This document shows, piece after piece, positions 2,923 to 34,606 of a stretch of 64,000 nucleotides of DNA. The DNA is from a bacterium (lineage in GTDB: Bacteria > Zhuqueibacterota > Zhuqueibacteria > Residuimicrobiales > Krinioviventaceae). Position 1 is the first letter of the stretch. Each line of letters begins with the position of its first letter. A program made the translations under genes and the position numbers. Location: assembly GCA_963675755.2 (NCBI GenBank), contig CAXXMD010000002.1:224001-288000 (forward strand), given 5' to 3'. The notes beneath the pieces were generated by a model. That model did no database searches. It saw nothing but the letters and a program-made list of their open reading frames with translations, and was not told the DNA's origin.

Positions 2923-3627
2923 TTATTTAAATTGATAAATAATTTGCAAGCTCGTTTGATAGGCTTTATTTCTGCCAAAAATATCAAGATAATCATATTC
3001 AAAATGATATGCGTAACCGATATCCGGGGCATATTCGAATTGTAAACCTAATGACAGATTGTTGGCAATGGGGTATTGCAGGCTTGCTCCTGCTAGTGCT
3101 CCAAAGACGACAGATTGTATATCTTCTTTATATATATATACATAAAAATAATCTCCATTATATTGTTTGTCATCTGAGGTATATGTATCCGGAGTATATT
3201 TATATTTTTGAAAATAATCAAGTCTTGCGCCTGCCATAACATTGATTTTCAGTTTCTTTATTTCAAGTACTGTAACTTTTAAATAAACGGGAAAAGATAT
3301 ATAATCAAGACGGATTTCATCCTGTGCGGTTTTTAATATTTCAGGACCCGATTCACCCGTAACAATAAATTCATCCTTGTATCCTTTTTGAGTGTAATTT
3401 GCACCAAAACCAATCGCTAACCGGGGATGAATATGAGAAATTTCAACAAATAATCCGGCTGTTGAACCATTCTTCCAAATCATATCCCCTTTATAGTTTG
3501 CCAATTCATGATTTTGGTATTGATTGGAATATACCCAACCCAATGAGCCTCCAACATTTGCCGATGAAAAGCACTGTGAGACTGAAAAAACAATCAATAG
3601 CGATACAAAAATACTATTTTTTTTCAT
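2923..3627 (-). CDS. Outer-membrane beta-barrel protein (PorT/OmpA-like, probably 8 strands)
   Basis: Signal peptide from ATG 3627 (MKKNSIF...); YTQKG, RLDYISFPV motifs; C-terminal LQIIYQFK beta-signal. Confidence 0.75.
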   Translation of the reverse strand: MKKNSIFVSLLIVFSVSQCFSSANVGGSLGWVYSNQYQNHELANYKGDMIWKNGSTAGLFVEISHIHPRLAIGFGANYTQKGYKDEFIVTGESGPEILKTAQDEIRLDYISFPVYLKVTVLEIKKLKINVMAGARLDYFQKYKYTPDTYTSDDKQYNGDYFYVYIYKEDIQSVVFGALAGASLQYPIANNLSLGLQFEYAPDIGYAYHFEYDYLDIFGRNKAYQTSLQIIYQFK

Positions 3628-3699
3628 CCCGATTCCTGTTTTGAAATAATGATTTGAATTTATTGAAATCAAGATAGTAAAATTTAGGATAACCTGCCA

Positions 3700-3740
3700 G
3701 AAGAAATATCAAGACCGCCAAACGAGTCAGCGGTCTTGAT
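3700..3740 (-). terminator. Terminator hairpin after the ABC operon
   Basis: ATCAAGACCGC (3708-3718) / GCGGTCTTGAT (3730-3740), followed by ATTTCTT on the minus strand. Confidence 0.65.
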
Positions 3741-3757: not shown

Positions 3758-5224
3758 CTATCTTACATCATAACGATTAAAAGCAATAAAAGCTCCGCTT
3801 ATACATAATGATGTGTATAATAACAGAACCATGATCTGTTTTAATGAGGGGAATAGTAGTGTAGACAATCTCGTTTTTCCAGGATTATATTCCGGTACAC
3901 CGCTAATGTCCAGGCTGGTATTTCGTCCCATTTCCAGTTTGAATCCTGCTTCAGAAGCTATAGTTACTCGTAATCCTGTTATACCGGTTTCTGATTTTTC
4001 TTTATTATCCAGATACTGATTTAATATGTTTTTATAGTCCTGCATGTTTTGTTCTGTACGTGATTTTAAATGAATATCCGTTTCTGCAACGTTGAGCATT
4101 AAAAGTTCAAATGCTGCGGCTGGCGATAGTTGGGCCAATGTAAAGGCAAGTTGTTCCTGTTCTCTTTTCTGGTTATAATATAGATTGTATTGAGCTGTTG
4201 AATACTCGTTGATATCTTTTTGATAATTTTTGCGTAAAGCATCTTCCTGTTCAATCCATTCCCACATGTGGTCATCCTGATAGATTTCTCGTTCAGAACG
4301 GTCCATATTTGTCATTTCAACATTCCGGATATTCCACATTTGTTCAAGCTCTTTGGTAAAGCTATCCCAGCGTTGTTTTGAATGGCCTTCTATTTGAGCG
4401 TCAATTTCAGCAACAGATGGCACCGGTTTTATTCTACCCGCAGCCATTACACCTATTCTGGGGATGATCAATACCAATGTGATCCAGATTATTAACAAGA
4501 GTAAGAAAGATGTTGAGGATTTTTGAGTTACTGATGATATAAACAAACCCATTGCAATAAAGAATACAAAATAAATCATTGTACTTGAGATCATGATGAT
4601 CATTCGAATCCACATATTGGAATCGAGCTGAATGTTAAATGCCATGATCAGTAATAAACTGATTAGAATTGATAAAATTACTGGTAATAACAATCCACTG
4701 CAGATTCCGGTAAATTTAGCTGTAATATATTGTTTTCTGGGAACAGCGTTTGCAAAAGTAAGCCGTAATGTGCCATTCTCTTTTTCACCGCTGATTGCGT
4801 CAAAAGAAAAGAGAATCGCAAAAAGAGATAACACAATAAGCACAAATCCTTTATAATCCAAATGTCTGAATACAGCAAAAATCGGATCATCGGAATAGGT
4901 ACTATGTTCGAGTTTAATGGGACTGGTACGATCTATGGAACTGTACCGGCCAATATCATTGGTGATTCCAGTTGTGAAAATTTTTAACGGATCGGGTTTA
5001 CGGTAAAGTGTCCGTTTGAAATGAGACCATGAACTCAGGCTGTTCATTTCTTCCAATGATAATTGTTCACCGGCATTGTACGATTGAATTGCGGACTGGT
5101 AATCCAGTATTCCTAGATAGATTGCCAGCATTAACAACAAGAGCGTTATTAAAAAAGTGAAAATGAATTTAGGTCCTGTTAGAATTGCTTTAAATTCCTT
5201 AATAAATATTGTTTTAAACATCAT
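3758..5224 (-). CDS. ABC-2 type exporter permease (paralog 2)
   Basis: N-terminal IFIKEF; FDAISGEKENGTLRLTFANAVPR...KF; about 6 TM helices with a long extracytoplasmic loop; ends YDVR. Confidence 0.88.
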   Translation of the reverse strand: MMFKTIFIKEFKAILTGPKFIFTFLITLLLLMLAIYLGILDYQSAIQSYNAGEQLSLEEMNSLSSWSHFKRTLYRKPDPLKIFTTGITNDIGRYSSIDRTSPIKLEHSTYSDDPIFAVFRHLDYKGFVLIVLSLFAILFSFDAISGEKENGTLRLTFANAVPRKQYITAKFTGICSGLLLPVILSILISLLLIMAFNIQLDSNMWIRMIIMISSTMIYFVFFIAMGLFISSVTQKSSTSFLLLLIIWITLVLIIPRIGVMAAGRIKPVPSVAEIDAQIEGHSKQRWDSFTKELEQMWNIRNVEMTNMDRSEREIYQDDHMWEWIEQEDALRKNYQKDINEYSTAQYNLYYNQKREQEQLAFTLAQLSPAAAFELLMLNVAETDIHLKSRTEQNMQDYKNILNQYLDNKEKSETGITGLRVTIASEAGFKLEMGRNTSLDISGVPEYNPGKTRLSTLLFPSLKQIMVLLLYTSLCISGAFIAFNRYDVR

Positions 5225-5236
5225 GTCCTCGGAAGT

Positions 5237-6652
5237 TTATCTGACGTCATATTTCAAAAATCCAATCAAGGCACCGGTAAAACAGAGTGCGTTGAGTACC
5301 AATAGAATTGACAGGTTAACAACAAATGGTTTTATATTTTGGTTAATGGAAACCGGTTGATAGACAAAGGCGGGCAATTCATTAATATCAATGGGTGGGG
5401 GCTGATTTTCTCCATCATCATTTATTTTCATCATTACGGTTCCCTGATCAAGTAATATACCTGTTTTCTCTTTCATAAACTGTTGATATACTGTTTGATA
5501 CCCCTGAACATTTTTGATAAAATTATTGTCCAGATCTAACGAAGTGCCTGAAATGGTTGAAACTGCTAAACCGAATAATGCTGCGGGAGAAATTCTGGCA
5601 ATACCCAACGCAATCCTTTTTTGTATTCCTTTTTTATTTTGCCTGTCTTCATTTAACCTGCCTGAAAAATCCATCAGCCTTTCATTTCTACTATCTCCAA
5701 GGTCTTGCATAAATTCTTGAAATTCCTGAATCATTTTTTCGGGATCTTGCGTGTTGATGGGATTAAATTGTGCCATTTTATTGCGATCTTCCTGTAACAA
5801 TTGGGACCTCAATCTGCTCTTTTGATAATCAAGGTAATCAACAGAGGGCACATTTACTGCTTTACCGGCAATAAGTACAGAAGCATTCGGTATGACAAAC
5901 ACAAACAATAACCACAATATAAGCATGGACAAAAAAGAAAGAGAAGGCTTGGGTAATACTATGGAGGCTAGAAAGGACAACAATTGAAAAAAATTAAAAT
6001 ATACAAGCCCGGCCAGTATTACCAGAAAGAGTTGTATCCATTCAGTTAATGAGAGTTCAATACCCATGAAAATCAGTATCAGGCAACCCAGCAACAAGGG
6101 AAGCATTAGTGGTAATGCAATGGCAAAAAAGGAACCGGTAATTTTACCAATAATATATTTGTCTTTGGGCACAGGGTTAGAAAAAGTCAATCTTAATGTC
6201 CCTTGTTGTTTTTCTCCATTTACCGCATCATAGGAGAACAATATGGCAAATATGGATAAAATGATTTGAAAGATAAATGTGAGATCCAGAAACCTGAAAA
6301 CAGCAAATAAAGGATCATTGCTGTACCGGCTATTTGCTGATGTCAATTCACCCCGGCTGAAAATTTCGGCTGACCGTCCAATGTCGTTTGATACTCCTGT
6401 AATAATGGATTCAAGGGGAGAGGGCGGTAAAAAAGCATGATGCCCCGTTACTTGTAACCAGTCAGTTAAACCGCTAAACTGTCGCAGGTTTTCAGCCTTT
6501 GCAGCATTATATTTATCCAGATTCATCTGATAGTTGGCTGCACCAATATAAAACGAAATAAGGATTAATACGGAGCAAACGGTAAATGTCCAAACAAATT
6601 TGCGTGTTTGTAAATGCTCCAACAGTTCTTTATAAATAATTGTTTTGATCAT
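5237..6652 (-). CDS. ABC-2 type exporter permease (paralog 1)
   Basis: IIYKEL; YDAVNGEKQQGTLRLTFSNPVPK; same topology as its neighbour; ends YDVR. Confidence 0.88.
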   Translation of the reverse strand: MIKTIIYKELLEHLQTRKFVWTFTVCSVLILISFYIGAANYQMNLDKYNAAKAENLRQFSGLTDWLQVTGHHAFLPPSPLESIITGVSNDIGRSAEIFSRGELTSANSRYSNDPLFAVFRFLDLTFIFQIILSIFAILFSYDAVNGEKQQGTLRLTFSNPVPKDKYIIGKITGSFFAIALPLMLPLLLGCLILIFMGIELSLTEWIQLFLVILAGLVYFNFFQLLSFLASIVLPKPSLSFLSMLILWLLFVFVIPNASVLIAGKAVNVPSVDYLDYQKSRLRSQLLQEDRNKMAQFNPINTQDPEKMIQEFQEFMQDLGDSRNERLMDFSGRLNEDRQNKKGIQKRIALGIARISPAALFGLAVSTISGTSLDLDNNFIKNVQGYQTVYQQFMKEKTGILLDQGTVMMKINDDGENQPPPIDINELPAFVYQPVSINQNIKPFVVNLSILLVLNALCFTGALIGFLKYDVR

Positions 6653-7405
6653 CTAGTTCTCCTGCACCTGATTGTTCTCCTTGAGAATATATTGTAAATA
6701 GAGTTGTTCAAGATCCTGCTGTTGCAATTCTTTTTTAGATTGCTCTGTTACAATTTTTCCCTTGCTCATAATTCCAACCATGTCTGCCATCTGTTTTGCT
6801 CTGAAAATATCATGAGTGGATATCAGGATCGCTTTACCTTCATCCTTCAATTCCAGTAACAAGTCGGTGAAATCATGGCCGGCTTTGGGGTCCAGCCCGG
6901 ATGTGGGTTCATCCAATACAATTGCAGGTGCGTTTTTCAGAATAGCTATTGCAATACCGCATTTTTGACGCATACCTTTGGAATAGTCACCCAGTTTACG
7001 ATTGTGGCTGCTTTTTTCCAAGCCGACTCTTTCCAGGGCTTCGTGATAATCTGATTTGGTATAGTAATCATGTCCACCGAGTTTTGAAAAATATTCCAGA
7101 TTTTGTATTGCACTGAAATTTGGATACAACATTACATTTTCAGAAACATATGCCAGTTTTTCTCTGGCACGTAGGGGATTTACATGTGTTTCAATTCCAT
7201 CTACCAGTGCTCTTCCATTTGTTGGTTCAATAAAGTTTAAAAAGATGTTTATTGTTGTAGATTTCCCGGCTCCGTTTGCTCCCAGCATGGCATAAATTTG
7301 TCCGGTATATATTTTGAATGAAACCTGATCAAGTGCAAGTACATCAGGTTCGTAAGCTTTTGTTAATGCGTCTGCTTCCAATAGAGGAGTATTAATATTT
7401 TCCAT
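6653..7405 (-). CDS. ABC transporter ATP-binding protein
   Basis: Walker A GANGAGKS, signature YSKGMRQ, Walker B IVLDEP, H-loop STH; ATG 7405 has a GAGG RBS (ORF open to 7417). Confidence 0.95.
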   Translation of the reverse strand: MENINTPLLEADALTKAYEPDVLALDQVSFKIYTGQIYAMLGANGAGKSTTINIFLNFIEPTNGRALVDGIETHVNPLRAREKLAYVSENVMLYPNFSAIQNLEYFSKLGGHDYYTKSDYHEALERVGLEKSSHNRKLGDYSKGMRQKCGIAIAILKNAPAIVLDEPTSGLDPKAGHDFTDLLLELKDEGKAILISTHDIFRAKQMADMVGIMSKGKIVTEQSKKELQQQDLEQLYLQYILKENNQVQEN

Positions 7406-7420
7406 AGTTAACCTCATTAT

Positions 7421-8911
7421 TTATCTTCGTGAAAGGCGAATTCCATAATAGATGATAACCGAGATGATTATCAGTATAAACAGGATGATGATCAAAGTTC
7501 CTGCTGTATTAGATCTTGCTTCTACCTGTACAATTACTGTTTTTTCTTCACCATATACAGGACGGTTGTCTGATAACGATGTGGATTTTATCCTGAATTC
7601 ATAGCGACCTGTACTAATCTCCTTCGTTGGCGTTAGGGTAATCCGTGTTTGTTTTTCATTACCTATTTCAAGTGATGGTGTTAATTCAGGATCAATGGAT
7701 TTGTCCCAGTTCATTGGTGTGTCTGCCTCCACCTTGATATTGTCAAGACGGCGAGACCCCTCATTAATTAGCTCAATATTAAAAGAAACCTGTTCCTCAG
7801 GTTTAATTGAGAAGTAGAGCATGGGAGCCCTTACCAAAAGTTTTCCAACACCGCGGGGTACAAGTTCCAATCGTACATAGCCAATATTCAGTGCTTCCAG
7901 TTCTTTATCATTCCAGATTTTATCAGAATCATTAAATTCACTGATCATGTTGCGGGGTACTGCAAGCACATAAAAGGGGATTGCCTGATCTATGACAATT
8001 TCATCAGATGGGCGATCAGGCATAAATACCTGTAATGCTGCTTGCCGGGTATTGGTGCTTTCAGTGAATTTGAACTGACTTAATCTCGCCTGACTAGCAG
8101 GATCCATAAAATAATGGTTAATCTGTTTGGGCAGATTCACAACCAAAAGTTTAAAAGTATTATTAACAGCACTAAACAATTCCAGAGTCAGATCAAGTGA
8201 TGCAGACTCGCCCAGTTCAACCTCTTGAGAGAATTGTTCAGATTGAACAATAACCTTGTTTTCGGATTCATCTTTTTGCAAAAAGATTTTAGGACTTCGT
8301 TGACTTCCATTGCTATATAAGAGATTTACCGTAACCGCATCCACATCCTGAAGTAAACCAAAGTCCAGCGTAATGGGTTTGCCGTACAAAAGCTGTTCAA
8401 TTTTTGCTTCATACGGTTGACTGATGATGGCATTGTCGTCATTCAAGAGTGAAACATAAACGTCATGTACTGTTTCCGGTTGCAGTGCGTTATAAAGATC
8501 ATCGTCAATGTTTAACAGCTTTTTAAACTCGGCTGTACCACCGGATGTATTTGCCAAAGTAATTTTGACTCGTTTTTGTCCGGTTTTGGATTGATACTTT
8601 ACCGCATTTTCTACACCCACATACTGATTTTCAAACAGGACGGCCAGCAGGGATTGCTGATAATTGACTTCAGCATCTGTCATTATATTTCTGGCGTTAT
8701 CCAGTTCCTGTTGAGATGTAAGGCCATTGTCAAACATGTCTTTGATTCGGTCGAACTGTTTCTTTGACATGTCATAGGCTTCTTTGGCCCGTTTTAATCC
8801 CAACAGCGTATATTGATCATCCCGTTGATTAAAATATGTCCCGGTTTGACTGAATGCGAGAGAGTACAGGATTAAGACGATTAAAAAATATTTAAATATT
8901 TGATTCGGCAT
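7421..8911 (-). CDS. Periplasmic accessory protein: MFP-like helical hairpin + Ig-like/NEW3 domains + C-terminal TM anchor
   Basis: Signal peptide; LKRAKEAYDMSKKQFDRIKDMFDNGLTSQQELDNAR hairpin; NEW3-like N.G...L.NI....TP.NW...L..G...TP....GRY; hydrophobic C-terminal helix followed by RLSRR. Confidence 0.7.
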   Translation of the reverse strand: MPNQIFKYFLIVLILYSLAFSQTGTYFNQRDDQYTLLGLKRAKEAYDMSKKQFDRIKDMFDNGLTSQQELDNARNIMTDAEVNYQQSLLAVLFENQYVGVENAVKYQSKTGQKRVKITLANTSGGTAEFKKLLNIDDDLYNALQPETVHDVYVSLLNDDNAIISQPYEAKIEQLLYGKPITLDFGLLQDVDAVTVNLLYSNGSQRSPKIFLQKDESENKVIVQSEQFSQEVELGESASLDLTLELFSAVNNTFKLLVVNLPKQINHYFMDPASQARLSQFKFTESTNTRQAALQVFMPDRPSDEIVIDQAIPFYVLAVPRNMISEFNDSDKIWNDKELEALNIGYVRLELVPRGVGKLLVRAPMLYFSIKPEEQVSFNIELINEGSRRLDNIKVEADTPMNWDKSIDPELTPSLEIGNEKQTRITLTPTKEISTGRYEFRIKSTSLSDNRPVYGEEKTVIVQVEARSNTAGTLIIILFILIIISVIIYYGIRLSRR

Positions 8912-8922
8912 TGAGCTTCTCG

Positions 8923-9684
8923 TTATTTATTAATAATGATATTGTCTTTGATTTCTGGTTTAATAAAAGAGACTCTAGTAGTTTTATCTTTATTTTTAAA
9001 TAAAAGTGTAACTTGCTCTCCAATCTTGATTTTGGAATAGAGTGCATCAAAATCCATTTTGTTGTTAACAGTATTATCGTTAATGGAAAGTAATTGACAA
9101 CCGGGTTCTATCTTTGTATCACCCAGAATAGTATGCGCGTGTGGCAGCACGTCAAATACAGTCAAAATATTATTGTTTTCTTCCAGCACTAATCCTTCGC
9201 CTGCAAGGATAATGAGATTCTCTGCGCCTTTGAGTACGACTTGCTCATTGTCGCCCATATCATCAGAAGGTGTTTTATCCTGAATGATCATTACACGTTT
9301 TCCATCTTGTTTTTGTAAATCCATTTTTTTGAATGCAATCATGAGCATTTGTCCGTCTCGTTGTATTCCCATTTTTACTTCTGATTCCGGATCCAGCGAA
9401 TCATAAATATTTTTAATTTCAGAAGCGCTTTTGACTCTTTTTTTGTTTACCATCAATATCGTATCATCTTGATCAAGTTTAATTTCACGATATTCTTCAG
9501 GGCGGGTTTCTGAGGGTAAAAGATTTGCAATTTTGACAGTATTGTTTTCACCTGATAATACAATCCCTAATTCCGGTAACATGAAAATGTCATCACCTGT
9601 AATTTCAATTTTTTTCATATGTACCTGAGCCAGCAGGGTAACGCATTGTATAAGGATGATCAGTGTTGATATTGTTCTTTTCAT
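8923..9684 (-). CDS. Secreted protein with two PDZ-like domains
   Basis: Signal peptide; two repeats (ELGIVL...LDQDDTILMVN...VKMGIQRDG and EGLVL...IEPGCQLLSIND...GEQVTL); RBS AAGGAG; no protease domain. Confidence 0.7.
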   Translation of the reverse strand: MKRTISTLIILIQCVTLLAQVHMKKIEITGDDIFMLPELGIVLSGENNTVKIANLLPSETRPEEYREIKLDQDDTILMVNKKRVKSASEIKNIYDSLDPESEVKMGIQRDGQMLMIAFKKMDLQKQDGKRVMIIQDKTPSDDMGDNEQVVLKGAENLIILAGEGLVLEENNNILTVFDVLPHAHTILGDTKIEPGCQLLSINDNTVNNKMDFDALYSKIKIGEQVTLLFKNKDKTTRVSFIKPEIKDNIIINK

Positions 9685-9750
9685 TTTATTCTCCTTTTTT
9701 ATGATTTATATTTTGTACGCCAAATATAAGTAATTGTTTTTACTGACTAT

Positions 9751-9790
9751 AGTTAAATAGTGTTATAATGTGTTAAAAAGTGTTAAAATC
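9751..9790. promoter_or_regulatory. Four tandem 10-bp direct repeats, probable OmpR-family binding array
   Basis: AGTTAAATAG TGTTATAATG TGTTAAAAAG TGTTAAAATC in the divergent intergenic region. Confidence 0.7.
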
Positions 9791-9826
9791 CGTGTTTTTT
9801 TCATCAATATGTATTATGTTTAACTG

Positions 9827-11452
9827 ATGGAAAAAAAACACATACAATTTGGGATCTTTGCTCTCATTATTCTGTCTTTTATAGGATTGGCAGGATTACA
9901 GCTTTATTTGTATAATCACAATAAAGAGCTTGAAAAGCAGTCTTTTGATAATATTGTGGAAAATTCACTCGGTCTGATAGTGAAAAAGATAGAAGCGCTG
10001 GATATAGCTGGCAATATAATACAAATGACTCGTGACGATTCCATGTATCACAAAATTATCAAAATTGATTCCTGTGATACCATGATAACCCGAATAAAGC
10101 ATATGAATGGGATAGTTGATACTACAGTTGAAATGCACATCATTTCCGCATACGATTCGCTTGATACCCTTGTTGATCCCCAGGGAGGAAATGCTGCTGG
10201 TACCTTTATTTATAAATTTGAAAAATCAATCTCAGACAGCACAATGATTTTGGATCATGACAGCATGAATGTGATGATCAAGATTGCGTCAGATGGGAAT
10301 AACAATCAAATAAATGCCAATGTTGATTTGAATGACCGCAAGCTAATGATTGAAAAAGTTGTGAATGATTTGACTTTTCTGAAAGCCAAACCTGTAATGG
10401 AAAGAATTCAACCAGCTGTTCTGGATTCAATTATAAAAATAACGTTGACTCAAAATTCGCTAAATCTAAATTATACATTTGGAATACTTGATACTCGTAA
10501 AGATTCTCTGTTATTTAAAAGCCCTGGGTTTGATCCCGGCTATATAACCAAAGCATATAAAAAGCAGTTGTTCCCGAATGATCTGTTGCCCGTACCTGCA
10601 CAGTTGTGTGTGTATTTCCCTAACCAGGGTTCATTTTTATTCAAGCGGTCTGGTACCTGGATACTCACAACCTTGTTTTTTATTCTTGTACTCGTATCCA
10701 GTTTTGTTTATTTGACTGGATTGCTATTCAGGCAGAAACAGTTTTTTAATCATATAGTGAATTTTATCAACAACATGACGCACGAGTTTAAAACTCCAAT
10801 TTCAACATTATCTCTTGTTGGCGAGGCACTCAAAAGCCCGGATAATATTGGCAATCATGAAAAATTATCACGCTACAGTCAGGTTGTTGATGACGAAACT
10901 TTACGCATGAGAAACCAAGTAGAAAAAATATTACAAATGGCAGCTTTGGAAAGTGGTAACGTTGAACTGAATAACAAGGGTGTTTCAATTCATCAAATAA
11001 TGAACAAGCTTGTTAAAAAGTATCAGATTGTTCAGGAGAAAGGTGCTGTAAATTTACAGATCAAGCTTGATGCCAATCAGGATAGTGTACTTGGTGATCC
11101 TGTACATTTGATGAATGTTTTTGATAACCTGGTGGACAATGCGATAAAATACAACAACAATACTCCGGATATTCATATTACCACCTATAATGACCCTAAA
11201 AGTATTACAATTATATTTCAGGATAATGGTATAGGTATATCTTCTCAAGATCAAAAGTTAATTTTCGATACCTATTACCGGGTACCCACAGGCAATGTGC
11301 ATGATGTTAAGGGTTTTGGATTGGGATTGAGTTATGTAAAACGTATTATAGAATTACTGCATGGCGACATACGAGTCAAAAGTCAGTTGGGTAAAGGCAC
11401 TCAGTTTGAAATAATTTTGCCATTGCAGATAGAAAATGCCAGGGATATATGA
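9827..11452 (+). CDS. Membrane sensor histidine kinase
   Basis: Two TM helices; H-box NMTHEFKTPI; N-box NLVDNAIKY; G1 DNGIG; G2 GFGLGL. Confidence 0.96.
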   Translation: MEKKHIQFGIFALIILSFIGLAGLQLYLYNHNKELEKQSFDNIVENSLGLIVKKIEALDIAGNIIQMTRDDSMYHKIIKIDSCDTMITRIKHMNGIVDTTVEMHIISAYDSLDTLVDPQGGNAAGTFIYKFEKSISDSTMILDHDSMNVMIKIASDGNNNQINANVDLNDRKLMIEKVVNDLTFLKAKPVMERIQPAVLDSIIKITLTQNSLNLNYTFGILDTRKDSLLFKSPGFDPGYITKAYKKQLFPNDLLPVPAQLCVYFPNQGSFLFKRSGTWILTTLFFILVLVSSFVYLTGLLFRQKQFFNHIVNFINNMTHEFKTPISTLSLVGEALKSPDNIGNHEKLSRYSQVVDDETLRMRNQVEKILQMAALESGNVELNNKGVSIHQIMNKLVKKYQIVQEKGAVNLQIKLDANQDSVLGDPVHLMNVFDNLVDNAIKYNNNTPDIHITTYNDPKSITIIFQDNGIGISSQDQKLIFDTYYRVPTGNVHDVKGFGLGLSYVKRIIELLHGDIRVKSQLGKGTQFEIILPLQIENARDI

Positions 11453-12156
11453 CAAAAAAAATTAACATATTAATTGTTGATGATGATCCGAATTTGGGTT
11501 TTATATTACAGGAATCCCTTGAAGCTCAAGGATATGAGCTAATACGTTGTGATAATGGTGCAGATGCGCTTGAAGCATATATCAAGAATACATTTGATCT
11601 CTGTTTGATTGATATTATGCTGCCCAGGATGGATGGGTTTAGTCTGGCAAAAGAGATCCGTAATATTGATAAACAGGTTCCTATCATTTTTCTTACCGCA
11701 AAATCTCTCAAAGAAGACAAGATTGAAGGTTTCAAAATTGGTGCGGATGATTATGTGACCAAACCCTTTAGCATGGAAGAACTGCAATTACGTATATCTG
11801 CTGTATTACGTCGAACACAAAATTTAATTGATGATTCAAATGAATCTATTTTCACAATAGGTAAATTTACATTCTACTATTCCGAACAGATTTTGAAATA
11901 CCGTAGAAAATCTCTTAAACTTACCTTAAAAGAATCAGAACTATTGTACCTGTTATGCAAACATCGTGATAAATATCTGGCTCGTGAATTTGCGTTGCAA
12001 TACATCTGGAATGATGAAAGTTATTTTTCCGGGCGCAGTATGGATGTTTATATTACAAAGCTGCGAAAATATCTTCAGGATGATGAGCGAATTGAAATCC
12101 GTAATTTGCATGGTAAAGGCTTTAAGCTGATCGTTCCTGATTCCACATCACATTGA
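11449..12156 (+). CDS. OmpR/PhoB-family response regulator
   Basis: ILIVDDD, DIMLP, FLTA, KPF; winged-helix RSMDVYITKLRK...GKGF; ATGA overlap with the kinase. Confidence 0.96.
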   Translation: MTKKINILIVDDDPNLGFILQESLEAQGYELIRCDNGADALEAYIKNTFDLCLIDIMLPRMDGFSLAKEIRNIDKQVPIIFLTAKSLKEDKIEGFKIGADDYVTKPFSMEELQLRISAVLRRTQNLIDDSNESIFTIGKFTFYYSEQILKYRRKSLKLTLKESELLYLLCKHRDKYLAREFALQYIWNDESYFSGRSMDVYITKLRKYLQDDERIEIRNLHGKGFKLIVPDSTSH

Positions 12157-17561: not shown

Positions 17562-20500
17562 TTATTTTACAAATGCCATTTTTTTAATCTCTTTATATTC
17601 ACCAGCTATAATGCGATAGTAATATACACCCGAACTTACAATGGTACCCTGATCATTTCTTCCATTCCATTCAATTTCATGATAACCGGGATCCATTTTG
17701 TTGTTTACGAGTGTCGCTACTTGTTGTCCCATAATGTTAAATATTTCAATCCGGGTTTGCATAACCTTGGGAAGATCAAAACGTATGCGTGTGACCGGAT
17801 TAAAAGGATTCGGGAAATTCTGATGTACCTGGAATGTTTTCGGGTACGCGGTTTCCAGTGAAACCGGTCCGTGTTCACCAGACCATCCGGAAATACTCAT
17901 GTCAACAAGTTTATAAAAATAGGTCCTTCCGGGTACAGTTGTAGTATCTGAATAACTGTATTGTCCGTCTTTACGCGTAGGTATCAATTTATTGTTCAGC
18001 TGCGCGTATTCACCTTCTTTTGTTAATGAGCGATAGATAAAAAATCCAAGATTGTCTACCTCATTTGCGGTTTCCCAATCCAGAATAACTCCTTTATAGG
18101 GTTCATGAATTGCACTAAAGCTTTGCAATTCAACTTTGGTTACCTGCCCCCATGTCACTTCGTCTGTATATTCACCATCAGATACAACACATTTAAGTGA
18201 ATATGATCCAGGGTGCTCAGCTGCAACAAAGAGGAATTCAGAACCAGTTCCAACCTCAGTATCATCCAGATACCATGTGAATGTTAATGGATCAGAATCA
18301 TCATCTTTTGCCAGTATGGTGAATTTCTGGCTGCCACCTTGTGGAACATCCAATACGGATTGGGGTGGATCTTTGTAAACAATCTGTGGCGCAGAGTTTC
18401 CTGTAATAACTATGGTAAGAGAATCTATATCAAATCCTTGTTCAGAATCGGGTTTGTTATCATACACTTCAAATACAATGTCCCATGTTTTTTTCTGATT
18501 TGCTTTTGGCATCCAGGTGAATACACCAGTATTGGGATCAAATGAAGAGTTTGCCGGTAGATTTTTAACTGAAAAGATTAATGGATCATCGTCATCATCT
18601 GAAGCAATAATCTGGTATTGATATTGTCCCTCAGTATAATCAACAGAGTCTTTGTGTGTAAGGTTTGTAAATACCGGGAATGCATTGCTGACACCAGTTG
18701 CGATAAATTCCAAATAATCAGGATTTGTACCCGGCTTGGAAGCCCATAATACATTCTCAGCCTGGTCACCCAACTGCCAGAAACAGGAGGCAAGGCCCAT
18801 ACTATCAGTGGTATCTTTGGTGCTTGAAACCGAACCTATGAAATCTTTGGGTTGAAAATAAACCAGTTCATCACTTACTTTATTACCATAACTATCAGTT
18901 AGTTTCACAACATTGGGATAAACAAGGAACCGGTTTTTGGTCATTACCTGGTTATTGCCGGAAACCATGTTTAATCTTGAAGGTCTACCATGTACGGCCT
19001 GTATATTAAAGATTACCTGAATATCATCTAATTCCGGAGATTTGGCAGTTATAGTATATTCGCCAACAATTTGACCGAGCTCAAGAATACCCTTTGCCAT
19101 GCCATTCATGTCTGTTAATAGTGTGTCTGCATTTAAAAATTCTGCATGATGTTCATCTGTTGGTGCATCTGCAACATTAAATACTATTTTTGTACCGGGA
19201 ACCGGATTGTCATGTTTATCTATTGCTTTAATGATCAACGTATCTGCTATAACCATTCCTACTGTATCAGTAACGGTAGTTGCTGATAGTGCAAGCAAAT
19301 CTACAGCAGAATCTGATTGAGCAGTTACCGTAACCCAAATAAAGGTTTCATCATTGGTTACATTGGCTTTGATTTGTTGCGGTCCTGAAACCATACCCGG
19401 TATATAATTGATTTCTGAACATCCTAAAAAGTTAGAGGTAGCGGGATTGTCTCCGATGAATTCTGCATCGTCAACGGATTTGGTGAATGTTACACTTGCT
19501 CCTGCAACAGCCAGAGAATCGCTGTCGTATACTTTGATACGAATGGGGTTTTCCATTTCTTCACCAACGGTTCCTGACAGCTCTCCCGTATAGTCTGTCA
19601 ATTTATAGGGGGGAACCGCATCTCTGGATGTAATTGAGAATTCTGCTACCTGACTACTTTGTCCCAGAGATTTTATATATGCAAGTACCAGCTGCGTACC
19701 TGTATTGGGACCCAATACCCAGTTTGCATATGCATTACCCGCAGAATCCGATTTGGTGGTATAGGATTGCAAACCGCTTTCTTTATGATATCCATCTCCA
19801 ACCTGGGTTTGGAATACAATATCCACATTTTTGATAGGATTGCCGTTGAGGTCTGTTACATGTGCACCAAATGGCTTGTTCAATACGGCACCTTTGTTAC
19901 CGGTCTGATCTGTACCGGCAATAGCGTCAATCTGAGAGGCATCATCCGGCACAAAATTGATGTCTATACTTCCCAGTGCTTTACTATTCTCTGCCAAAAG
20001 AACGTCAACAGTTACAGTATCTGCAATGGTGGATTTTACCTGACCTGTTGTTTCACCGCTATTGTTTGTAGCAAGAGTTGGATTAATAATTGTAACTCCC
20101 TGATCATCCGCATTCAACTCTACCATTTTACCGGAAACAGGATTGTTGTATTTATCCCGCAAGCGGATAGTAACCTGTGATGATTCTACTCCATCTGCAA
20201 CCACATCCTGGATTGCATTAATTTGAGTAGAGTCTGCAAAAGGAGTACCTGCCCGCAAGGTGACTTTGACAGTGTCTGGAGACCCTGCTAAATGAACATC
20301 ATCATTACTGGATGATATCTCTAACCAGTTTTCTGTATTTATATCTGTACCTAAAATCCAGTTTTCTGTTGCTACACCGTTCAATGTTCCCTGAAAGCTT
20401 TTGTCAATAGTCGTTGATTCAAGACGACCACCGCCCTTGATGACTTTGTAATTGACGTTATGTTTGTCAACGGGATCGCCATCCAGATCATAGGCGCCAA

Positions 20501-29120: not shown

Positions 29121-29151
29121 TGCAAACCATTTCCGTGTTTATCTGTCTAAA
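29121..29151 (+). promoter_or_regulatory. Putative ECF sigma autoregulatory promoter
   Basis: CAAACC (29123-29128) N16 GTCTAA (29145-29150), 23 bp before the sigma ATG. Confidence 0.5.
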
Positions 29152-29173
29152 TAGACAAGAAGCGAGAGAATAC

Positions 29174-29746
29174 ATGGAATTCAATGAAATAGAATTAATT
29201 AAACAAGCCCAGTCAGGTGATACAACTGCATTTACCAGGTTGATGGAAATGCATGATCGTAGTGTATGGCAGGTAATTTATCATATGCTGGGAAACGTGC
29301 AAGATACTCAGGATCTGTATCAGGATACATTCCTCCGTGCATTTGAAAAAATTGGTACTTTTCGTTTTGCAAGTTCGTTCAAGAGTTGGATTGTACGGAT
29401 AGGTATTAATCTATGTATTAATCATCGCAAACGGAAACGTATTGTAAAATGGATATCAATTTTTGATACGGTTGATGATACAGATAAAACTTTACAATGG
29501 ATGGATACCAAAGTGTTAAATCCGGATGAAAAACTGTCTCAGACGCAAATCAAAGAACATATTGTATCTGCAATGGATACTTTGTCACACCGCGAACGGG
29601 CAGTTTTTGTATTGAAACAGATTGAAGGATACAAAATCCAGGAGATTGCTAAAACTCTCAACTGTGCTGAAGGCACAGTGAAGAATTATTTGTTTCGTGC
29701 AACACAAAAAATGAAAAAGGGGCTTACACCTGTACTAAGAGCCTGA
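29174..29746 (+). CDS. ECF RNA polymerase sigma factor
   Basis: AQSGD..AF..L, QDLYQDTFLRAF, SFKSWI.RI..N, region 4 EIA..L....GTVK..LFRA. Confidence 0.95.
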   Translation: MEFNEIELIKQAQSGDTTAFTRLMEMHDRSVWQVIYHMLGNVQDTQDLYQDTFLRAFEKIGTFRFASSFKSWIVRIGINLCINHRKRKRIVKWISIFDTVDDTDKTLQWMDTKVLNPDEKLSQTQIKEHIVSAMDTLSHRERAVFVLKQIEGYKIQEIAKTLNCAEGTVKNYLFRATQKMKKGLTPVLRA

Positions 29747-29755
29747 GGAAATGTT

Positions 29756-33820: not shown

Positions 33821-33979
33821 TTACTACCTTTTTTCCGGTTCTTGTTTGACTTGTTTTCTTATTTGGCATATTTTACGTATATTTCATAATCTAAACATAA
33901 TATTGAATTAATGAATTGATTTTAAATTCAATTGTGTCTAAATTATTATCTTTTGTTTTTGAAAAAGGAGAAACGGCTT

Positions 33980-34606
33980 ATGAATGCTGTATTGGAAAAA
34001 CTCGGTCAGATGAGAATTGTACCTGTTGTTGCGATCCACAATGCAAGTGATGCACAGCCACTAGCCCTGGCATTAATGGAAGGTGGATTGCCTTGTGCTG
34101 AAATAACATTTAGAACAGATGCTGCGGAAGAAGCGATCAAGGCAATGGCAACAATTGACAATATGCTGGTAGGTGCCGGTACAGTATTAAAAGTTGATCA
34201 GGTAAAAACAGCAGTAGATGCCGGTGCATCTTTTATTGTTTCACCTGGCTTTAACCCAAAAGTAGTTGAATATTGTGTTAAAAACAATATTCCTGTAACC
34301 CCGGGCATCAGTAATCCAACGGATATTGAAATGGCTTTGGATTTTGATCTTGAGGTTGTCAAGTTTTTCCCGGCAGAGGCGTTTGGTGGATTAAAGACGC
34401 TTAAAGCCATGAGTGCCCCGTATCATATGGTGAAATTCATACCTACGGGTGGAATAAACGCTGACAATCTTGTATCATATTTGGAATTCCCCAAAGTGTT
34501 AGCTTGCGGTGGCAGTTGGATGGTTAAAGCAGATCTCATTAATGAAGGTAAATTTGAAGAGATATCCTGCCTTACCCGAAAGGCCATGGATATCGCAATG
34601 TCTTGA
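33980..34606 (+). CDS. eda: KDPG/KHG aldolase
   Basis: AEITFRT, VGAGTV, FIVSPG, KFFPA, PTGGI, GGSW; ATG 33980 after AAGGAG. Confidence 0.95.
   Translation: MNAVLEKLGQMRIVPVVAIHNASDAQPLALALMEGGLPCAEITFRTDAAEEAIKAMATIDNMLVGAGTVLKVDQVKTAVDAGASFIVSPGFNPKVVEYCVKNNIPVTPGISNPTDIEMALDFDLEVVKFFPAEAFGGLKTLKAMSAPYHMVKFIPTGGINADNLVSYLEFPKVLACGGSWMVKADLINEGKFEEISCLTRKAMDIAMS

What the first reader, a model, noticed from the sequence alone, without database searches (positions are those of the whole stretch)
3758..12156. Candidate new trans-periplasmic ABC export module: PDZ protein + MFP-hairpin/Ig adaptor + ATPase + two paralogous permeases, with a divergent two-component system
Seen: five tightly packed minus-strand genes (gaps 0-15 bp), closed by a hairpin at 3708-3740 and divergent from an HK/OmpR pair. 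Known: ABC-2-type exporters do not usually use membrane fusion proteins; tripartite pumps (MacAB, HlyBD) use N-anchored MFPs. Inference: this ABC-2 heterodimer may be coupled to an outer-membrane channel or to periplasmic substrate handling through an unusual adaptor, with the stand-alone PDZ protein recognising peptides. That would fit envelope protein/peptide quality control or detoxification. No TolC gene is present in the window. I cannot confirm novelty without a search.
Basis: partly seen in the sequence, partly recalled or inferred. Interest (0 to 1): 0.78.

Follow-up and report, generated by a model that had tools for sequence, protein, structure and literature searches.

The report
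Conserved ABC-2 envelope module, novel adaptor
A seven-gene module widespread in Bacteroidota-related bacteria couples an ABC transporter to a previously undescribed periplasm-spanning adaptor protein whose tip resembles the part of efflux-pump adaptors that docks onto outer-membrane channels; what it transports is unknown.

Summary
Five tightly packed minus-strand genes (2xPDZ protein, adaptor, ATPase, two 34%-identical ABC-2 permeases), a terminator hairpin and a divergent HK/OmpR-type pair lie at the stated coordinates. Across 80 related genome loci (FCB-group phyla) adaptor-ATPase-permA-permB is near invariant (76/77, 69/69, 58/59). The PDZ gene (58/72) and the two-component pair (47/59, 44/57) are usual. 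A phased TTAAC repeat array is conserved in 26/42 divergent promoters. The adaptor folds (AF2 pLDDT 91) as a cleavable signal peptide, an N-terminal alpha-hairpin, three Ig-like domains and a C-terminal TM helix. The hairpin tip carries the RxxxLxxxxxxS (RLS) motif that MacA/AcrA use to bind TolC, conserved and in register with solved MFPs, though all sequence scores are marginal. The permeases are NosY-like with a ~170-residue periplasmic insert, mostly helical. It is not NosDFY, GldAFG or a canonical MFP. No outer-membrane factor gene is linked in any locus. Substrate, oligomeric state and OM docking remain inferred. Verdict: a real, uncharacterised, conserved system and a new variant of adaptor-dependent ABC export.

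The parts
3708..3740 (-). Intrinsic-terminator-like hairpin closing the operon
   Evidence: 14-bp stem, 6 GC pairs, 5-nt loop, T-rich tail. It lies 17 nt after the stop codon of the last permease gene (sequence read).
3758..5224 (-). Permease B (488 aa), ABC-2 type, paralogue of permease A
   Evidence: Pfam ABC2_membrane_2 6.4e-32 and DUF3526 1e-6. 34% identical to permease A. Present in 58/59 related loci with enough flank. The one miss (L026) has a permease-like ORF after an inserted gene.
5237..6652 (-). Permease A (471 aa), NosY-like six-TM core with a periplasmic insert (~170 aa, mostly helical) between TM5 and TM6
   Evidence: Pfam. AF2 pLDDT 82.1, pTM 0.77; helices 271-294, 304-352, 356-368 and 372-397 lie between TM5 (236-265) and TM6 (436-467). 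The best PDB fold matches are NosY chains of NosDFY, TMt 0.69-0.78. Profile against PDB: NosY 1.2e-10. Present in 69/69 loci.
6653..7417 (-). ABC ATPase (254 aa, single NBD)
   Evidence: Pfam ABC_tran 2.7e-28. The nearest NCBIfam models are DrrA-type (177.8 bits, cut-off 312) and GldA (150.6, cut-off 402.6), both below cut-off. Walker A (GANGAGKST), Walker B with the catalytic Glu (VLDEPT) and the H-loop (STHD) were read in the sequence. 30% identical to each half of E. coli YbhF. Present in 76/77 loci.
7421..8911 (-). Adaptor (496 aa): signal peptide, alpha-hairpin, three Ig-like beta-sandwich domains (the third is NEW3/NPCBM_assoc), C-terminal TM helix and a short basic tail
   Evidence: AF2 on a 58-sequence alignment: pLDDT 91.2, pTM 0.69. 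Helices 32-61 and 67-94; beta domains about 98-210, 220-353 and 358-463; helix 469-495. Pfam NPCBM_assoc 5.3e-12. Family size: 468 clusters at 50% identity with E<=1e-3, and full-length matches down to ~25% identity. No specific solved homologue.
8630..8818 (-). Alpha-helical hairpin of the adaptor (aa 32-94)
   Evidence: AF2. A profile of the hairpin alone hits 25 PDB sequences at E<=10, and 13 of them are membrane fusion proteins (best EmrA 0.0017, 4l8j 0.0094). All are marginal. The best BLAST HSP against E. coli YbhG is the hairpin tip (E 0.097).
8714..8749 (-). RLS-type motif at the hairpin tip (R55-x3-M59-x6-S66)
   Evidence: In 58 diverse family members: R 43/58, L 50 plus M 5 of 58, S 44 plus T 3 of 58. 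It aligns in register with the RxxxLxxxxxxS of PDB 4l8j and of YbhG. The motif is defined as the TolC-binding tip of MacA/AcrA/MexA in PMC3391258 (passages read).
7427..7507 (-). C-terminal transmembrane anchor of the adaptor (aa 469-495)
   Evidence: AF2 helix 469-495. The stretch is hydrophobic and is followed by RLSRR at the C-terminus. The tail consensus is conserved.
8923..9684 (-). Secreted protein with two PDZ domains and no protease domain (253 aa)
   Evidence: Pfam PDZ_2 8.2e-14, 2 stretches. Weak DegP/HtrA PDZ-region hits, far below cut-off. The N-terminal hydrophobic signal was read. Present upstream of the adaptor in 58/72 loci. No longer fused relatives were found (weak evidence).
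9751..9785 (-). Four direct TAAC(A/T) repeats at 10-bp phase, the candidate binding site of the OmpR-type regulator
   Evidence: Box cores at 9751-9755, 9761-9765, 9771-9775 and 9781-9785. TTAAC pairs spaced 9-11 nt, in the same orientation, occur in 26 of 42 HK/operon intergenic regions. In 500 shuffles the mean was 0.06 and the maximum 2.
9721..9728 (-). TATATTTG, a match to the TAnnTTTG -7 element of Bacteroidota promoters (consensus recalled, not from a call)
   Evidence: 36 nt upstream of the PDZ start codon, and its start lies 22 nt after the last repeat box.
9827..11452 (+). Sensor histidine kinase (541 aa) with a ~245-aa extracytoplasmic region between two hydrophobic segments
   Evidence: HisKA 5.8e-11, HATPase_c 5.9e-26. 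The hydrophobic stretches at about aa 8-29 and 278-301 were read. No Pfam family covers the sensor region. A divergent HK is present in 47/59 loci.
11449..12156 (+). OmpR/PhoB-family response regulator (235 aa)
   Evidence: Response_reg 3.9e-31, Trans_reg_C 1.3e-15. The nearest NCBIfam model is RprY, 305.3 bits, below its cut-off of 370. Present in 44/57 loci.

Best explanation
This is a conserved, signal-regulated envelope machine built on an ABC-2 (type V, NosY-like) transporter.

Composition. One ATPase gene supplies both nucleotide-binding domains. Two paralogous permeases form a heterodimer, and each carries a periplasmic insert (~170 residues, mostly helical). A signal-peptide-bearing, C-tail-anchored adaptor stands on the inner membrane on a stalk of three Ig-like domains. 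Its free N-terminal end is an alpha-hairpin whose tip carries the RxxxLxxxxxxS motif that membrane fusion proteins use to dock onto TolC-type channels.

Most likely mechanism (inferred). Several adaptor copies surround the permease dimer, as MacA surrounds MacB and as YbhG is presumed to surround YbhSR. They link the permeases to an outer-membrane factor encoded elsewhere in the genome. ATP-driven movement of the periplasmic inserts then expels a periplasmic or outer-leaflet substrate. The soluble two-PDZ protein would be a periplasmic accessory that captures or presents a peptide-like ligand. The divergent kinase/OmpR-type pair would switch the operon on through four phased TTAAC boxes.

Shown here: gene content, conservation of gene order, domain architecture, motif conservation and the conserved cis-element. 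Inferred: oligomeric state, outer-membrane docking, direction of transport, substrate and the PDZ role.
For: Synteny. Of 80 related genome loci, counted only where enough flank is present: ATPase 76/77, permease A 69/69, permease B 58/59, PDZ 58/72, divergent HK 47/59, RR 44/57, all seven genes 34/52.

Adaptor architecture. AF2 pLDDT 91.2: hairpin 32-61/67-94, three beta-sandwich domains, C-terminal helix 469-495.

RLS motif at the modelled tip. R 43/58, L/M 55/58, S/T 47/58 in a diverse alignment. These are among the best-conserved hairpin columns. The motif is in register with MFP 4l8j and with E. coli YbhG. Its function is described in PMC3391258.

MFP likeness of the hairpin. MFP hairpins make up 6/13 PDB hits of the full-length profile and 13/25 hits of the hairpin-only profile.

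Permease. NosY-like fold with a helical periplasmic insert. Periplasmic loop 1 is strongly conserved, with 23/66 columns at >=90%.

Fusion. One family member (P0210, 892 aa) is an in-frame permease-adaptor fusion.

Precedent. E. coli ybhGFSR has the same gene order, MFP-ATPase-permease-permease.

Regulation. Phased TTAAC boxes occur in 26/42 intergenic regions against a shuffle mean of 0.06. In three Calditrichia loci the two-component pair is absent and M56 BlaR1-type genes stand upstream, with a BlaI-type repressor gene confirmed in two of them. The operon is thus kept under signal control by interchangeable regulators.
Against: - Every sequence match of the hairpin to MFPs is marginal (best E 0.0017 to 0.0094). 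Coiled-coil proteins such as CLF1 and ribosomal protein L35 score in the same range.
- The hairpin also gives weak OEP hits (9/58 members), although the genuine MFP YbhG does too.
- The adaptor lacks the lipoyl, beta-barrel and membrane-proximal domains that let MFPs form hexamers.
- No OEP/TolC gene was found among 123 neighbour ORFs scanned in the related loci or in 45 window ORFs.
- The base of the hairpin is more conserved than its tip.
- R55 is replaced in some members (15/58) and the window itself has M, not L, at position 59.
- The closest solved relative of the permease, NosFY, is thought not to be a trans-envelope exporter (from memory of the NosDFY literature; not read here).
- PDZ and the two-component genes are dispensable in whole lineages: Ignavibacteria lack PDZ, and Rhodothermales lack both.
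Confidence: 0.4

Rival explanations
1. Periplasmic mechanotransducer without an outer-membrane partner, in the manner of NosDFY, FtsEX-EnvC or LolCDE. ATP hydrolysis moves the periplasmic helical inserts. The adaptor hairpin binds those helices, as the EnvC coiled coil binds FtsX. The motion is used to activate, load or release a periplasmic partner: the PDZ protein, or a hydrolase acting on peptides or cell wall. Nothing crosses the inner or outer membrane.
For: - The closest solved structure of the permease is NosY of NosDFY.
- No OMF gene is linked in any locus.
- Periplasmic hydrolase genes recur inside or beside the cluster. PF00144 serine hydrolases lie inside it in 9 of 80 loci. S41 peptidases lie between the ATPase and permease A in 2 loci. 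Amidase lies directly downstream in 4 loci. S9, M1 and M3 peptidases also occur.
- The hairpin base is more conserved than the tip.
- The adaptor lacks MFP oligomerisation domains.
Against: - The RLS motif is conserved and in register with TolC-docking adaptors.
- The hairpin sits at the end of the chain farthest from the membrane anchor, after three Ig domains. That placement suits reaching outward rather than binding the membrane-proximal permease.
- The accessory hydrolases are each present in only a minority of loci and are absent from the window.
- The FtsEX and NosDFY comparisons are recalled, not tested here.
Confidence: 0.3
2. Self-contained inner-membrane detoxification or immunity exporter of the LanFEG / BceAB-RS kind. 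One ATPase plus two paralogous ABC-2 permeases, induced by a dedicated two-component system, removes an antimicrobial peptide or other amphiphile from the membrane. The adaptor and PDZ protein act as periplasmic binding or shielding accessories, like LanI or other immunity proteins, and not as a bridge to the outer membrane.
For: - The architecture is ATPase + two paralogous permeases + an OmpR-type two-component system.
- The ATPase scores against the lantibiotic-protection model TIGR03740 (149 bits) and the PSM-export model PmtA.
- A BlaI/BlaR1-type sensor pair stands in place of the two-component system in Calditrichia loci.
- Beta-lactamase-family genes are inserted in 9 loci.
Against: - All those NCBIfam scores are far below the curated cut-offs (149 against 309.75; permease hits 15-27 bits).
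- LanEG permeases, from memory, are about 250 aa without periplasmic domains. Here each permease has a ~170-residue periplasmic insert between TM5 and TM6.
- The kinase has a large extracytoplasmic sensor, unlike the transporter-dependent intramembrane-sensing BceS type (the comparison is recalled).
- The adaptor is 57-66% identical among the 120 best database hits, whose source names span several phyla. That is unusually slow evolution for an immunity accessory.
Confidence: 0.2
3. Housekeeping envelope-biogenesis transporter. It would move a lipid, glycolipid or lipoprotein from the inner membrane towards the outer membrane, as ABCA/ABCG, Lpt or Lol systems do. The Ig stalk and hairpin would act as a bridge or ruler.
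For: - The fold is type V/ABCG-like, the class that handles lipids (one search lists ABCG25, ABCG2, ABCA1, ABCA4 and ABCA7 after NosY).
- Sequence conservation across phyla is very high.
- Stalk length varies by whole Ig domains in some relatives (P0146).
Against: - The module was detected in only 347 stretches of a collection of 185,579 species genomes (this is a lower bound, because the search depended on two peptide patterns). It is therefore not a universal housekeeping system.
- It is under dedicated inducible regulators.
- No lipid-related gene is consistently linked.
Confidence: 0.1

Closest known systems
E. coli YbhGFSR (cecR-ybhGFSR operon)
   Same: The gene order is periplasmic adaptor, ABC ATPase, then two paralogous six-TM ABC-2 permeases, with a dedicated regulator alongside (annotation of NC_000913.3; PMC7190983 passages). 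The ATPase is 30% identical to each YbhF half. The adaptor hairpin tip aligns with the YbhG tip with RxxxLxxxxxxS in register.
   Different: - YbhG is a canonical HlyD_D23/lipoyl MFP. The adaptor here has none of those domains, is anchored by a C-terminal helix and uses three Ig-like domains.
- YbhF is a tandem-NBD protein of 578 aa. Here the ATPase is a single 254-aa NBD.
- YbhS/YbhR are barely related to these permeases (BLAST E 0.01). The permeases here score below the gathering cut-off on ABC2_membrane_3, the family I recall for YbhS/YbhR.
- The regulator is TetR-type in E. coli. Here it is a two-component system.
- There is no PDZ gene in E. coli.
MacAB-TolC and other MFP-dependent tripartite pumps (AcrA, MexA, EmrA, HlyD)
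   Same: An alpha-hairpin with an RLS-type tip motif. The ABC transporter has a sizeable periplasmic domain that could sit inside an adaptor ring. In E. coli the OMF gene of these pumps is unlinked (recalled).
   Different: - There is no lipoyl, beta-barrel or membrane-proximal domain.
- The hairpin is at the free N-terminus instead of being inserted in a lipoyl domain.
- The anchor is at the C-terminus instead of the N-terminus.
- The transporter is type V (NosY-like), not the type VII MacB fold.
NosDFY(L) copper-delivery ABC complex
   Same: The permease TM core is the nearest solved fold and sequence relative. Both are ABC-2 permeases that work with a dedicated periplasmic partner protein.
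   Different: - No NosD beta-helix protein, NosL or NosZ gene was found among the window ORFs scanned or the neighbour ORFs scanned in the loci.
- The NosY chains are 246-276 residues long and, from memory, form a homodimer. Here there is a heterodimer of 471 and 488 aa with a ~170-residue insert, mostly helical, between TM5 and TM6.
GldAFG gliding-motility ABC transporter of Bacteroidota
   Same: An FCB-group ABC-2 transporter with a membrane-anchored periplasmic accessory protein of unknown role.
   Different: The curated equivalog models are not met: GldA 150.6 against a cut-off of 402.6, GldF 20.6 against 288.5. No GldG-type protein is present. There is a single GldF permease, against two paralogues here.
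LanFEG-LanRK / BceAB-RS peptide-antibiotic detoxification modules
   Same: An ATPase plus (for LanFEG) two paralogous ABC-2 permeases, under an adjacent OmpR-type two-component system.
   Different: Scores are far below family cut-offs. The permeases here have large periplasmic domains. An adaptor and a PDZ protein are added. The kinase has a large extracytoplasmic sensor.

Membership tests
Membrane fusion protein / periplasmic adaptor protein (HlyD, AcrA, MacA type) | Antiparallel alpha-helical hairpin with a conserved RxxxLxxxxxxS tip motif | tested here: met
   AF2 helices 32-61 and 67-94 with the loop at 62-66. R55/M59/S66; in 58 members R 43, L+M 55, S+T 47. In register with 4l8j and YbhG. 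Sequence E-values are marginal (0.0017 to 0.1).
Membrane fusion protein / periplasmic adaptor protein (HlyD, AcrA, MacA type) | Lipoyl (biotinyl-lipoyl-like) domain split around the hairpin | tested here: not met
   No Biotin_lipoyl, Biotin_lipoyl_2 or HlyD family in any of 58 members at E<=0.01. The control YbhG hits Biotin_lipoyl_2 at 2.2e-7. The hairpin directly follows the signal peptide.
Membrane fusion protein / periplasmic adaptor protein (HlyD, AcrA, MacA type) | Beta-barrel and membrane-proximal domains (HlyD_D23 / HlyD_3) | tested here: not met
   None in 58 members. YbhG control: HlyD_D23 7.3e-20, HlyD_3 9.4e-15. The model shows three Ig-like sandwiches instead, and Foldseek returns only generic tandem-Ig matches with TMq <=0.30.
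Membrane fusion protein / periplasmic adaptor protein (HlyD, AcrA, MacA type) | N-terminal membrane anchor (TM helix or lipid) | tested here: not met
   The N-terminal hydrophobic stretch is about 13 residues with an A-x-S site, typical of a cleaved signal peptide (read; this is an inference). The anchor is the C-terminal helix 469-495.
Membrane fusion protein / periplasmic adaptor protein (HlyD, AcrA, MacA type) | Hexameric assembly that binds an outer-membrane factor | not testable with these tools
   No oligomer or OMF complex could be modelled. The OMF genes of the host genome are not in the window.
NosDFY | NosY-type ABC-2 permease | tested here: met
   Profile E 1.2e-10 to NosY, over the TM2-TM5 core only. 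Foldseek TMt 0.69-0.78.
NosDFY | NosD periplasmic beta-helix partner with NosL/NosZ context | tested here: not met
   No such Pfam family in the 45 window ORFs scanned or in the 123 neighbour ORFs of related loci.
GldAFG | Curated equivalog models for GldA and GldF, plus a GldG component | tested here: not met
   GldA 150.6 bits against cut-off 402.6; GldF 20.6 against 288.5. No GldG-like gene in the cluster.
YbhGFSR | Operon order adaptor-ATPase-permease-permease with two paralogous ABC-2 permeases | tested here: met
   Window order against E. coli annotation ybhG-ybhF-ybhS-ybhR.
YbhGFSR | Orthology of the components (tandem-NBD YbhF, YbhS/YbhR permeases, HlyD_D23 adaptor) | tested here: not met
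   Permease A against YbhS: E 0.01, 22-23% identity over fragments. Adaptor against YbhG: only a 38-residue HSP, E 0.097. The ATPase is a single NBD of 254 aa against 578 aa.
LanFEG lantibiotic-protection transporter | Curated model for the ATPase (TIGR03740) and short LanE/LanG permeases | tested here: not met
   149.1 bits against cut-off 309.75. Permease hits to related immunity or export models are 15-18 bits against cut-offs of 220-450.
OmpR/PhoB-type two-component system | HisKA+HATPase_c kinase and Response_reg+Trans_reg_C regulator encoded together | tested here: met
   The specific equivalog RprY is not reached (305.3 against 370).

The most novel reading that the evidence does not exclude
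The 496-aa protein founds a new class of periplasmic adaptor. It is a type-I, C-tail-anchored protein that holds an MFP-style RLS hairpin at the end of a three-Ig stalk. Several copies turn a NosY-like type V ABC-2 heterodimer into an envelope-spanning, OMF-coupled extrusion machine. That would be a third structural solution to tripartite ABC export, besides MacAB-type and HlyBD-type systems. The machine would be inducible through a conserved TTAAC-box regulon and would serve to clear peptide-like or cell-wall-related compounds from the periplasm of FCB-group bacteria.
Probability: 0.3. Interest if true: 0.8.

Novelty: new variant of a known kind. Interest (0 to 1): 0.62.

Why it matters
Tripartite efflux and secretion systems are central to envelope biology and drug tolerance in diderm bacteria. 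All characterised periplasmic adaptors share one domain plan: lipoyl, barrel and membrane-proximal domains around a hairpin. Here an MFP-type hairpin tip appears on a completely different scaffold, next to a type V ABC-2 transporter whose nearest solved relative (NosFY) is, as I recall it, not an exporter.

If the adaptor does dock onto an outer-membrane factor, two things follow. The hairpin tip would be the transferable docking element, and adaptor scaffolds would be interchangeable. The range of transporters known to be wired to TolC-like channels would also grow.

The module is strongly conserved: the adaptor is 49-66% identical to the window's across the 79 other-species loci kept (94% in L054, a near relative). 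It occurs in hundreds of species of KSB1, Calditrichota, Ignavibacteriota, Rhodothermales, Balneolales, Chitinophagales and neighbouring groups. It has its own conserved regulatory site. No curated NCBIfam model reaches its cut-off for any of its seven proteins, and no paper describing it was found. It is therefore a well-defined, testable unknown in a poorly studied part of the bacterial tree.

Tried and rejected
1. Complex prediction of permease A with the mature adaptor gave no verdict (score 0.00; controls not run). It counts neither for nor against binding.

It was repeated with a closer 19-sequence alignment.

3. The Atlas look-up of the window adaptor was not possible. The stored homologue P0109 returned only its own family and distant COG1470/NEW3 clusters at 0.77, which is lead level.

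4. phmmer of the adaptor against PDB gave 0 hits. Foldseek of the adaptor model gave only generic tandem-Ig matches (integrin legs, ciliary proteins; TMq <=0.30).

5. An apparent PDZ-adaptor fusion (P0147) was rejected as a probable frameshift artefact. Residues ~245-345 and ~505-690 are R/P/S-rich sequence with no similarity to either protein.

6. A search for longer fused relatives of the PDZ protein found none (weak evidence by the tool's own statement).

7. tblastn of the adaptor against 72,556 plasmids gave no match.

8. Literature searches of the held library:
- 'DUF3526': 0 papers.
- 'NEW3 domain' + 'ABC transporter': 1 paper, which mentions a NEW3-domain protein only in passing.
- 'COG1470': 1 paper, judged unrelated from its title and abstract only.
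- 'NPCBM_assoc': 5 papers, judged unrelated from titles and abstracts only.
- 'ABC-2' + 'periplasmic adaptor' + 'Ig-like' + 'TolC': 0 papers.

9. Pfam accessions PF25876/PF25893, precomputed on 31 of the 120 listed homologues, could not be named or reproduced. The local Pfam copy does not report them even for YbhG. I recall them as MFP hairpin families.

10. The downstream OMP beta-barrel gene (2923-3672) was considered as a sixth operon member and rejected. It lies after the terminator and is conserved only in the 94%-identical relative L054.

Full report
OBSERVATION

There are five minus-strand genes: 8923-9684, 7421-8911, 6653-7417, 5237-6652 and 3758-5224, separated by 11, 3, 0 and 12 nt. 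A 14-bp-stem hairpin with a T-rich tail lies at 3740..3708, 17 nt after the last stop codon. A 142-nt divergent intergenic region leads to a histidine kinase (9827-11452) and a response regulator (11449-12156) that overlap by 4 nt.

Pfam gives:
- two PDZ_2 stretches for the 253-aa protein;
- NPCBM_assoc/NEW3 plus a weak Ig hit for the 496-aa protein;
- ABC_tran for the 254-aa protein;
- ABC2_membrane_2 plus DUF3526 for both permeases;
- HisKA/HATPase_c and Response_reg/Trans_reg_C for the regulators.

The permeases are 34% identical. No curated NCBIfam model reaches its cut-off for any of the seven proteins. That includes GldA and GldF, the lantibiotic-protection ATPase and RprY. No OEP/TolC-family protein is among the 45 window ORFs scanned.

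IS THE CLUSTER A UNIT?

The adaptor has more than 1350 relatives among the 8000 candidates scored. The best 120 are all about 500 aa and 56-66% identical (the window's own entry, 100%, aside). Their sources call them only 'NEW3 domain-containing', 'hypothetical' or 'uncharacterized membrane protein'. Against 1.84 billion representatives it matches 468 clusters at E<=1e-3 and 179 at E<=1e-30, with full-length alignments down to about 25% identity.

A scan of 185,579 species genomes with two conserved peptide patterns found 384 stretches. Of these, 347 encode a relative, and the best 80 were kept with flanks. By record title they are KSB1/Zhuqueibacterota, Calditrichia, Ignavibacteriota/Melioribacteraceae, Rhodothermales, Balneolaceae, Chitinophagales and other Bacteroidota, Krumholzibacteriota, one Acidobacteria and several unnamed bacteria. 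One is an isolate (Balneola sp. EhC07, L076). L054 is a 94%-identical near relative of the window organism.

I called ORFs in these loci and searched them with the window proteins. I counted only loci with enough flank. The adaptor is followed on the same strand by:
- the ATPase in 76/77 loci (miss: L069);
- permease A in 69/69;
- permease B in 58/59. The miss, L026, has a permease-like ORF after an inserted BamB-like gene.

The PDZ gene precedes the adaptor in 58/72 loci. It is absent in a set of Ignavibacteria and Rhodothermales loci. A divergent kinase is present in 47/59 loci and the regulator in 44/57. All seven genes are present in 34/52.

The invariant core is adaptor + ATPase + two permeases. 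PDZ and the two-component pair are frequent accessories.

One family member (P0210, 892 aa) is an in-frame fusion of a permease to an adaptor. An apparent PDZ-adaptor fusion (P0147) looks like a frameshift artefact.

REGULATION

The window's intergenic region holds four TAAC(A/T) cores at exactly 10-nt phase (9751-9785). They are followed, on the operon strand, by TATATTTG 36 nt before the PDZ start codon. I recall TAnnTTTG as the Bacteroidota -7 consensus.

In 42 kinase/operon intergenic regions, 26 have TTAAC pairs 9-11 nt apart, all in the same orientation. In 500 shuffles the mean was 0.06 and the maximum 2. Seven more regions have pairs 20 nt apart. The aligned snippets show a conserved array: TTTAACAC, 2 nt, TTTAACAC, 2 nt, cTAACAC, 2 nt, TTTAACTA. 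This is what a tandem OmpR/PhoB-type binding site looks like. It links the regulator to the operon by phylogenetic footprint. Binding itself is inferred.

The kinase has two hydrophobic segments flanking about 245 residues with no Pfam family, so it probably senses in the periplasm.

The three Calditrichia loci (L013, L021, L023) lack the two-component pair. An M56 BlaR1-type gene stands upstream on the operon strand in all three, and a BlaI-type repressor gene is confirmed in L021 and L023. The operon thus stays under signal control while the regulator type changes.

THE ADAPTOR

AF2 on a 58-sequence alignment gives pLDDT 91.2 and pTM 0.69. The model has:
- a hydrophobic N-terminal helix, about 13 hydrophobic residues followed by A-F-S, which I read as a cleaved signal peptide;
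- helices 32-61 and 67-94 forming a hairpin;
- three beta-sandwich domains;
- a C-terminal helix 469-495 followed by RLSRR.

The predicted topology is therefore an inner-membrane anchor at the C-terminus, with the hairpin at the free, membrane-distal N-terminus. Foldseek finds only generic tandem-Ig proteins, and phmmer finds nothing in PDB.

Profiles are more informative.
- The full-length profile hits 13 PDB sequences at E<=1. Six are MFP hairpins (4l8j 9e-4, TriAB, ZneB, MexJ, two AcrA). Six are Ig domains of glycosidases matching the NEW3 domain.
- A hairpin-only profile hits 25 sequences at E<=10. Thirteen are MFPs (EmrA 0.0017, 4l8j 0.0094, AcrA, MexJ, MacA, TriAB, ZneB). The rest are CLF1 (5), ribosomal protein L35 (3), SmpB (2) and two others.

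These scores are marginal, and coiled-coil composition contributes to them. What adds weight is the register. The tip reads R55-x3-M59-x6-S66, the RxxxLxxxxxxS 'RLS' motif. PMC3391258 (passages read) describes that motif as the TolC-binding tip of MacA, AcrA and MexA (RLT in HlyD). It aligns residue for residue with the motif in 4l8j and in E. coli YbhG.

In the 58 diverse members the three positions are R 43, L 50 + M 5, and S 44 + T 3. They are among the most conserved of the 68 hairpin columns.

Against this:
- the hairpin base (LLGLKRAKEAY... and DAEVNYQQSLLAVLFE) is even more conserved than the tip;
- 9/58 members also give weak OEP hits, as does the genuine MFP YbhG;
- none of the lipoyl, barrel or HlyD domains is present (YbhG control).

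The protein is therefore not a member of the MFP family, but it carries that family's docking element.

Some relatives (P0146, 718 aa) have two extra copies of the first Ig domain, which gives a longer stalk.

THE TRANSPORTER

AF2 of permease A (51 sequences; pLDDT 82.1, pTM 0.77) shows six TM helices. TM1 is extended (17-57). Between TM5 and TM6 there is a periplasmic insert of about 170 residues, mostly helical: helices 271-294, 304-352, 356-368 and 372-397. The 49-residue helix would reach about 70 A if straight.

The nearest solved structures are NosY chains of NosDFY (Foldseek TMt 0.69-0.78; profile E 1.2e-10). ABCG and ABCA transporters follow. This is a type V fold.

Periplasmic loop 1 (58-123) is strongly conserved, with 23/66 columns at >=90% including a GxxNDxGR motif shared by both paralogues. 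AF2 models it poorly. It is a candidate partner or substrate site.

The ATPase has intact Walker A, Walker B with the catalytic Glu, and an H-loop (read).

CONTEXT

No OEP gene was found among 123 neighbour ORFs scanned. One of those calls covered 68 of the 90 ORFs of 380-560 aa within 4 kb of the core.

The only recurrent insertion inside the cluster is a PF00144 beta-lactamase-family serine hydrolase, in 9 of 80 loci. Also seen:
- S41 peptidases between the ATPase and permease A (L009, L019);
- an amidase directly downstream (4 loci);
- S9 (5 loci), M1 (3 loci) and M3 (L071; L073 has an ORF of the same length and place that was not scanned) peptidases nearby.

This is a hint of a peptide or cell-wall theme, no more. 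The window itself has none of these genes. Three Rhodothermales loci carry a third permease paralogue upstream.

INTERPRETATION

The best-supported reading (confidence 0.4) is an inducible, adaptor-dependent ABC-2 extrusion machine that uses an unlinked outer-membrane factor. The closest known system is E. coli YbhGFSR, which has the same order: MFP, ATPase, two paralogous ABC-2 permeases. The components are not orthologous, however.

The main rival (0.3) is a NosDFY/FtsEX-like periplasmic mechanotransducer with no outer-membrane partner. Lesser rivals are a LanFEG-like immunity exporter (0.2) and a lipid or envelope-biogenesis transporter (0.1).

A complex prediction of adaptor with permease A returned no verdict and is not used as evidence.

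NOVELTY

Six literature searches found no description of this architecture (details under Tried and rejected). The library omits most subscription journals. I rate the system a new variant of a known kind: adaptor-dependent ABC export with an undescribed adaptor scaffold on a type V transporter.

UNCHECKED

- Whether the host genomes encode OMFs.
- The 267 further genome loci.
- The gene context of distant family members.
- The closed collections metagenome contigs and viral contigs.
- The names of PF25876/PF25893.

Noticed in passing
L013:7249-8730, L021:6778-8744, L023:7166-9062: In the three Calditrichia loci the divergent two-component pair is absent. An M56 BlaR1-type gene stands directly upstream of the PDZ gene on the operon strand in all three, and a BlaI-type Penicillinase_R repressor gene is confirmed in L021 and L023. 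This is a regulator swap at a conserved operon.
   Followed up: partly
L005:8324-9919, L009:8434-9894, L011:8127-9848, L012:8291-9907, L014:4013-5479, L019:8259-9710, L003:2781-4628, L007:1900-3843, L013:12385-13884: A PF00144 beta-lactamase-family serine hydrolase gene is inserted inside the cluster on the operon strand in 9 of 80 loci, at three different positions. S41 peptidase genes sit between the ATPase and permease A in L009 and L019.
   Followed up: partly
L035:8059-9654, L049:5950-7410, L062:1614-3053: Rhodothermales loci that lack PDZ and the two-component genes carry a third ABC2_membrane_2+DUF3526 permease paralogue upstream of the adaptor.
   Followed up: partly
protein P0146 (718 aa): Some adaptor relatives have two extra copies of the hairpin-proximal Ig domain, so stalk length varies by whole domains within the family.
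   Followed up: partly
window 2923-3672 (-): A 249-aa OMP_b-brl_2 / TDE1717-like small outer-membrane beta-barrel gene lies directly after the operon terminator, followed by a GNAT acetyltransferase gene (2042-2917). This arrangement is conserved only in the near relative L054, so it is probably not part of the module.
   Followed up: partly
window 17562-25652 (-): A 2696-aa ORF with an N-terminal GDSL lipase domain, Big_1/invasin-type Ig repeats, a macroglobulin MG4 hit and a C-terminal FlgD_ig domain. It is probably a giant secreted or surface protein.
   Followed up: no
window 38479-45427 (-): A six-gene minus-strand cluster: an HTH_34 regulator, an unknown gene, a LolA_like protein, an unknown gene, a saccharopine-dehydrogenase-like reductase and a 939-aa MMPL/SecDF-type transporter. 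It looks like a lipid-export module.
   Followed up: no
window 29135-32004 (+): An ECF-type sigma factor, followed by a HEAT-repeat protein and a DUF4097 'toastrack' protein. This is a putative sigma/anti-sigma envelope-signalling trio.
   Followed up: no
window 55898-57691 (-) and several related loci: Proteins with a Por_Secre_tail (type IX secretion) C-terminal domain. This fits an FCB-group origin for the window.
   Followed up: no
window 33932-34606 and 34509-36017 (+): The KDPG-aldolase ORF and the pyruvate-kinase ORF overlap by 98 nt as listed. The GTG start listed for pyruvate kinase is probably too far upstream.
   Followed up: no
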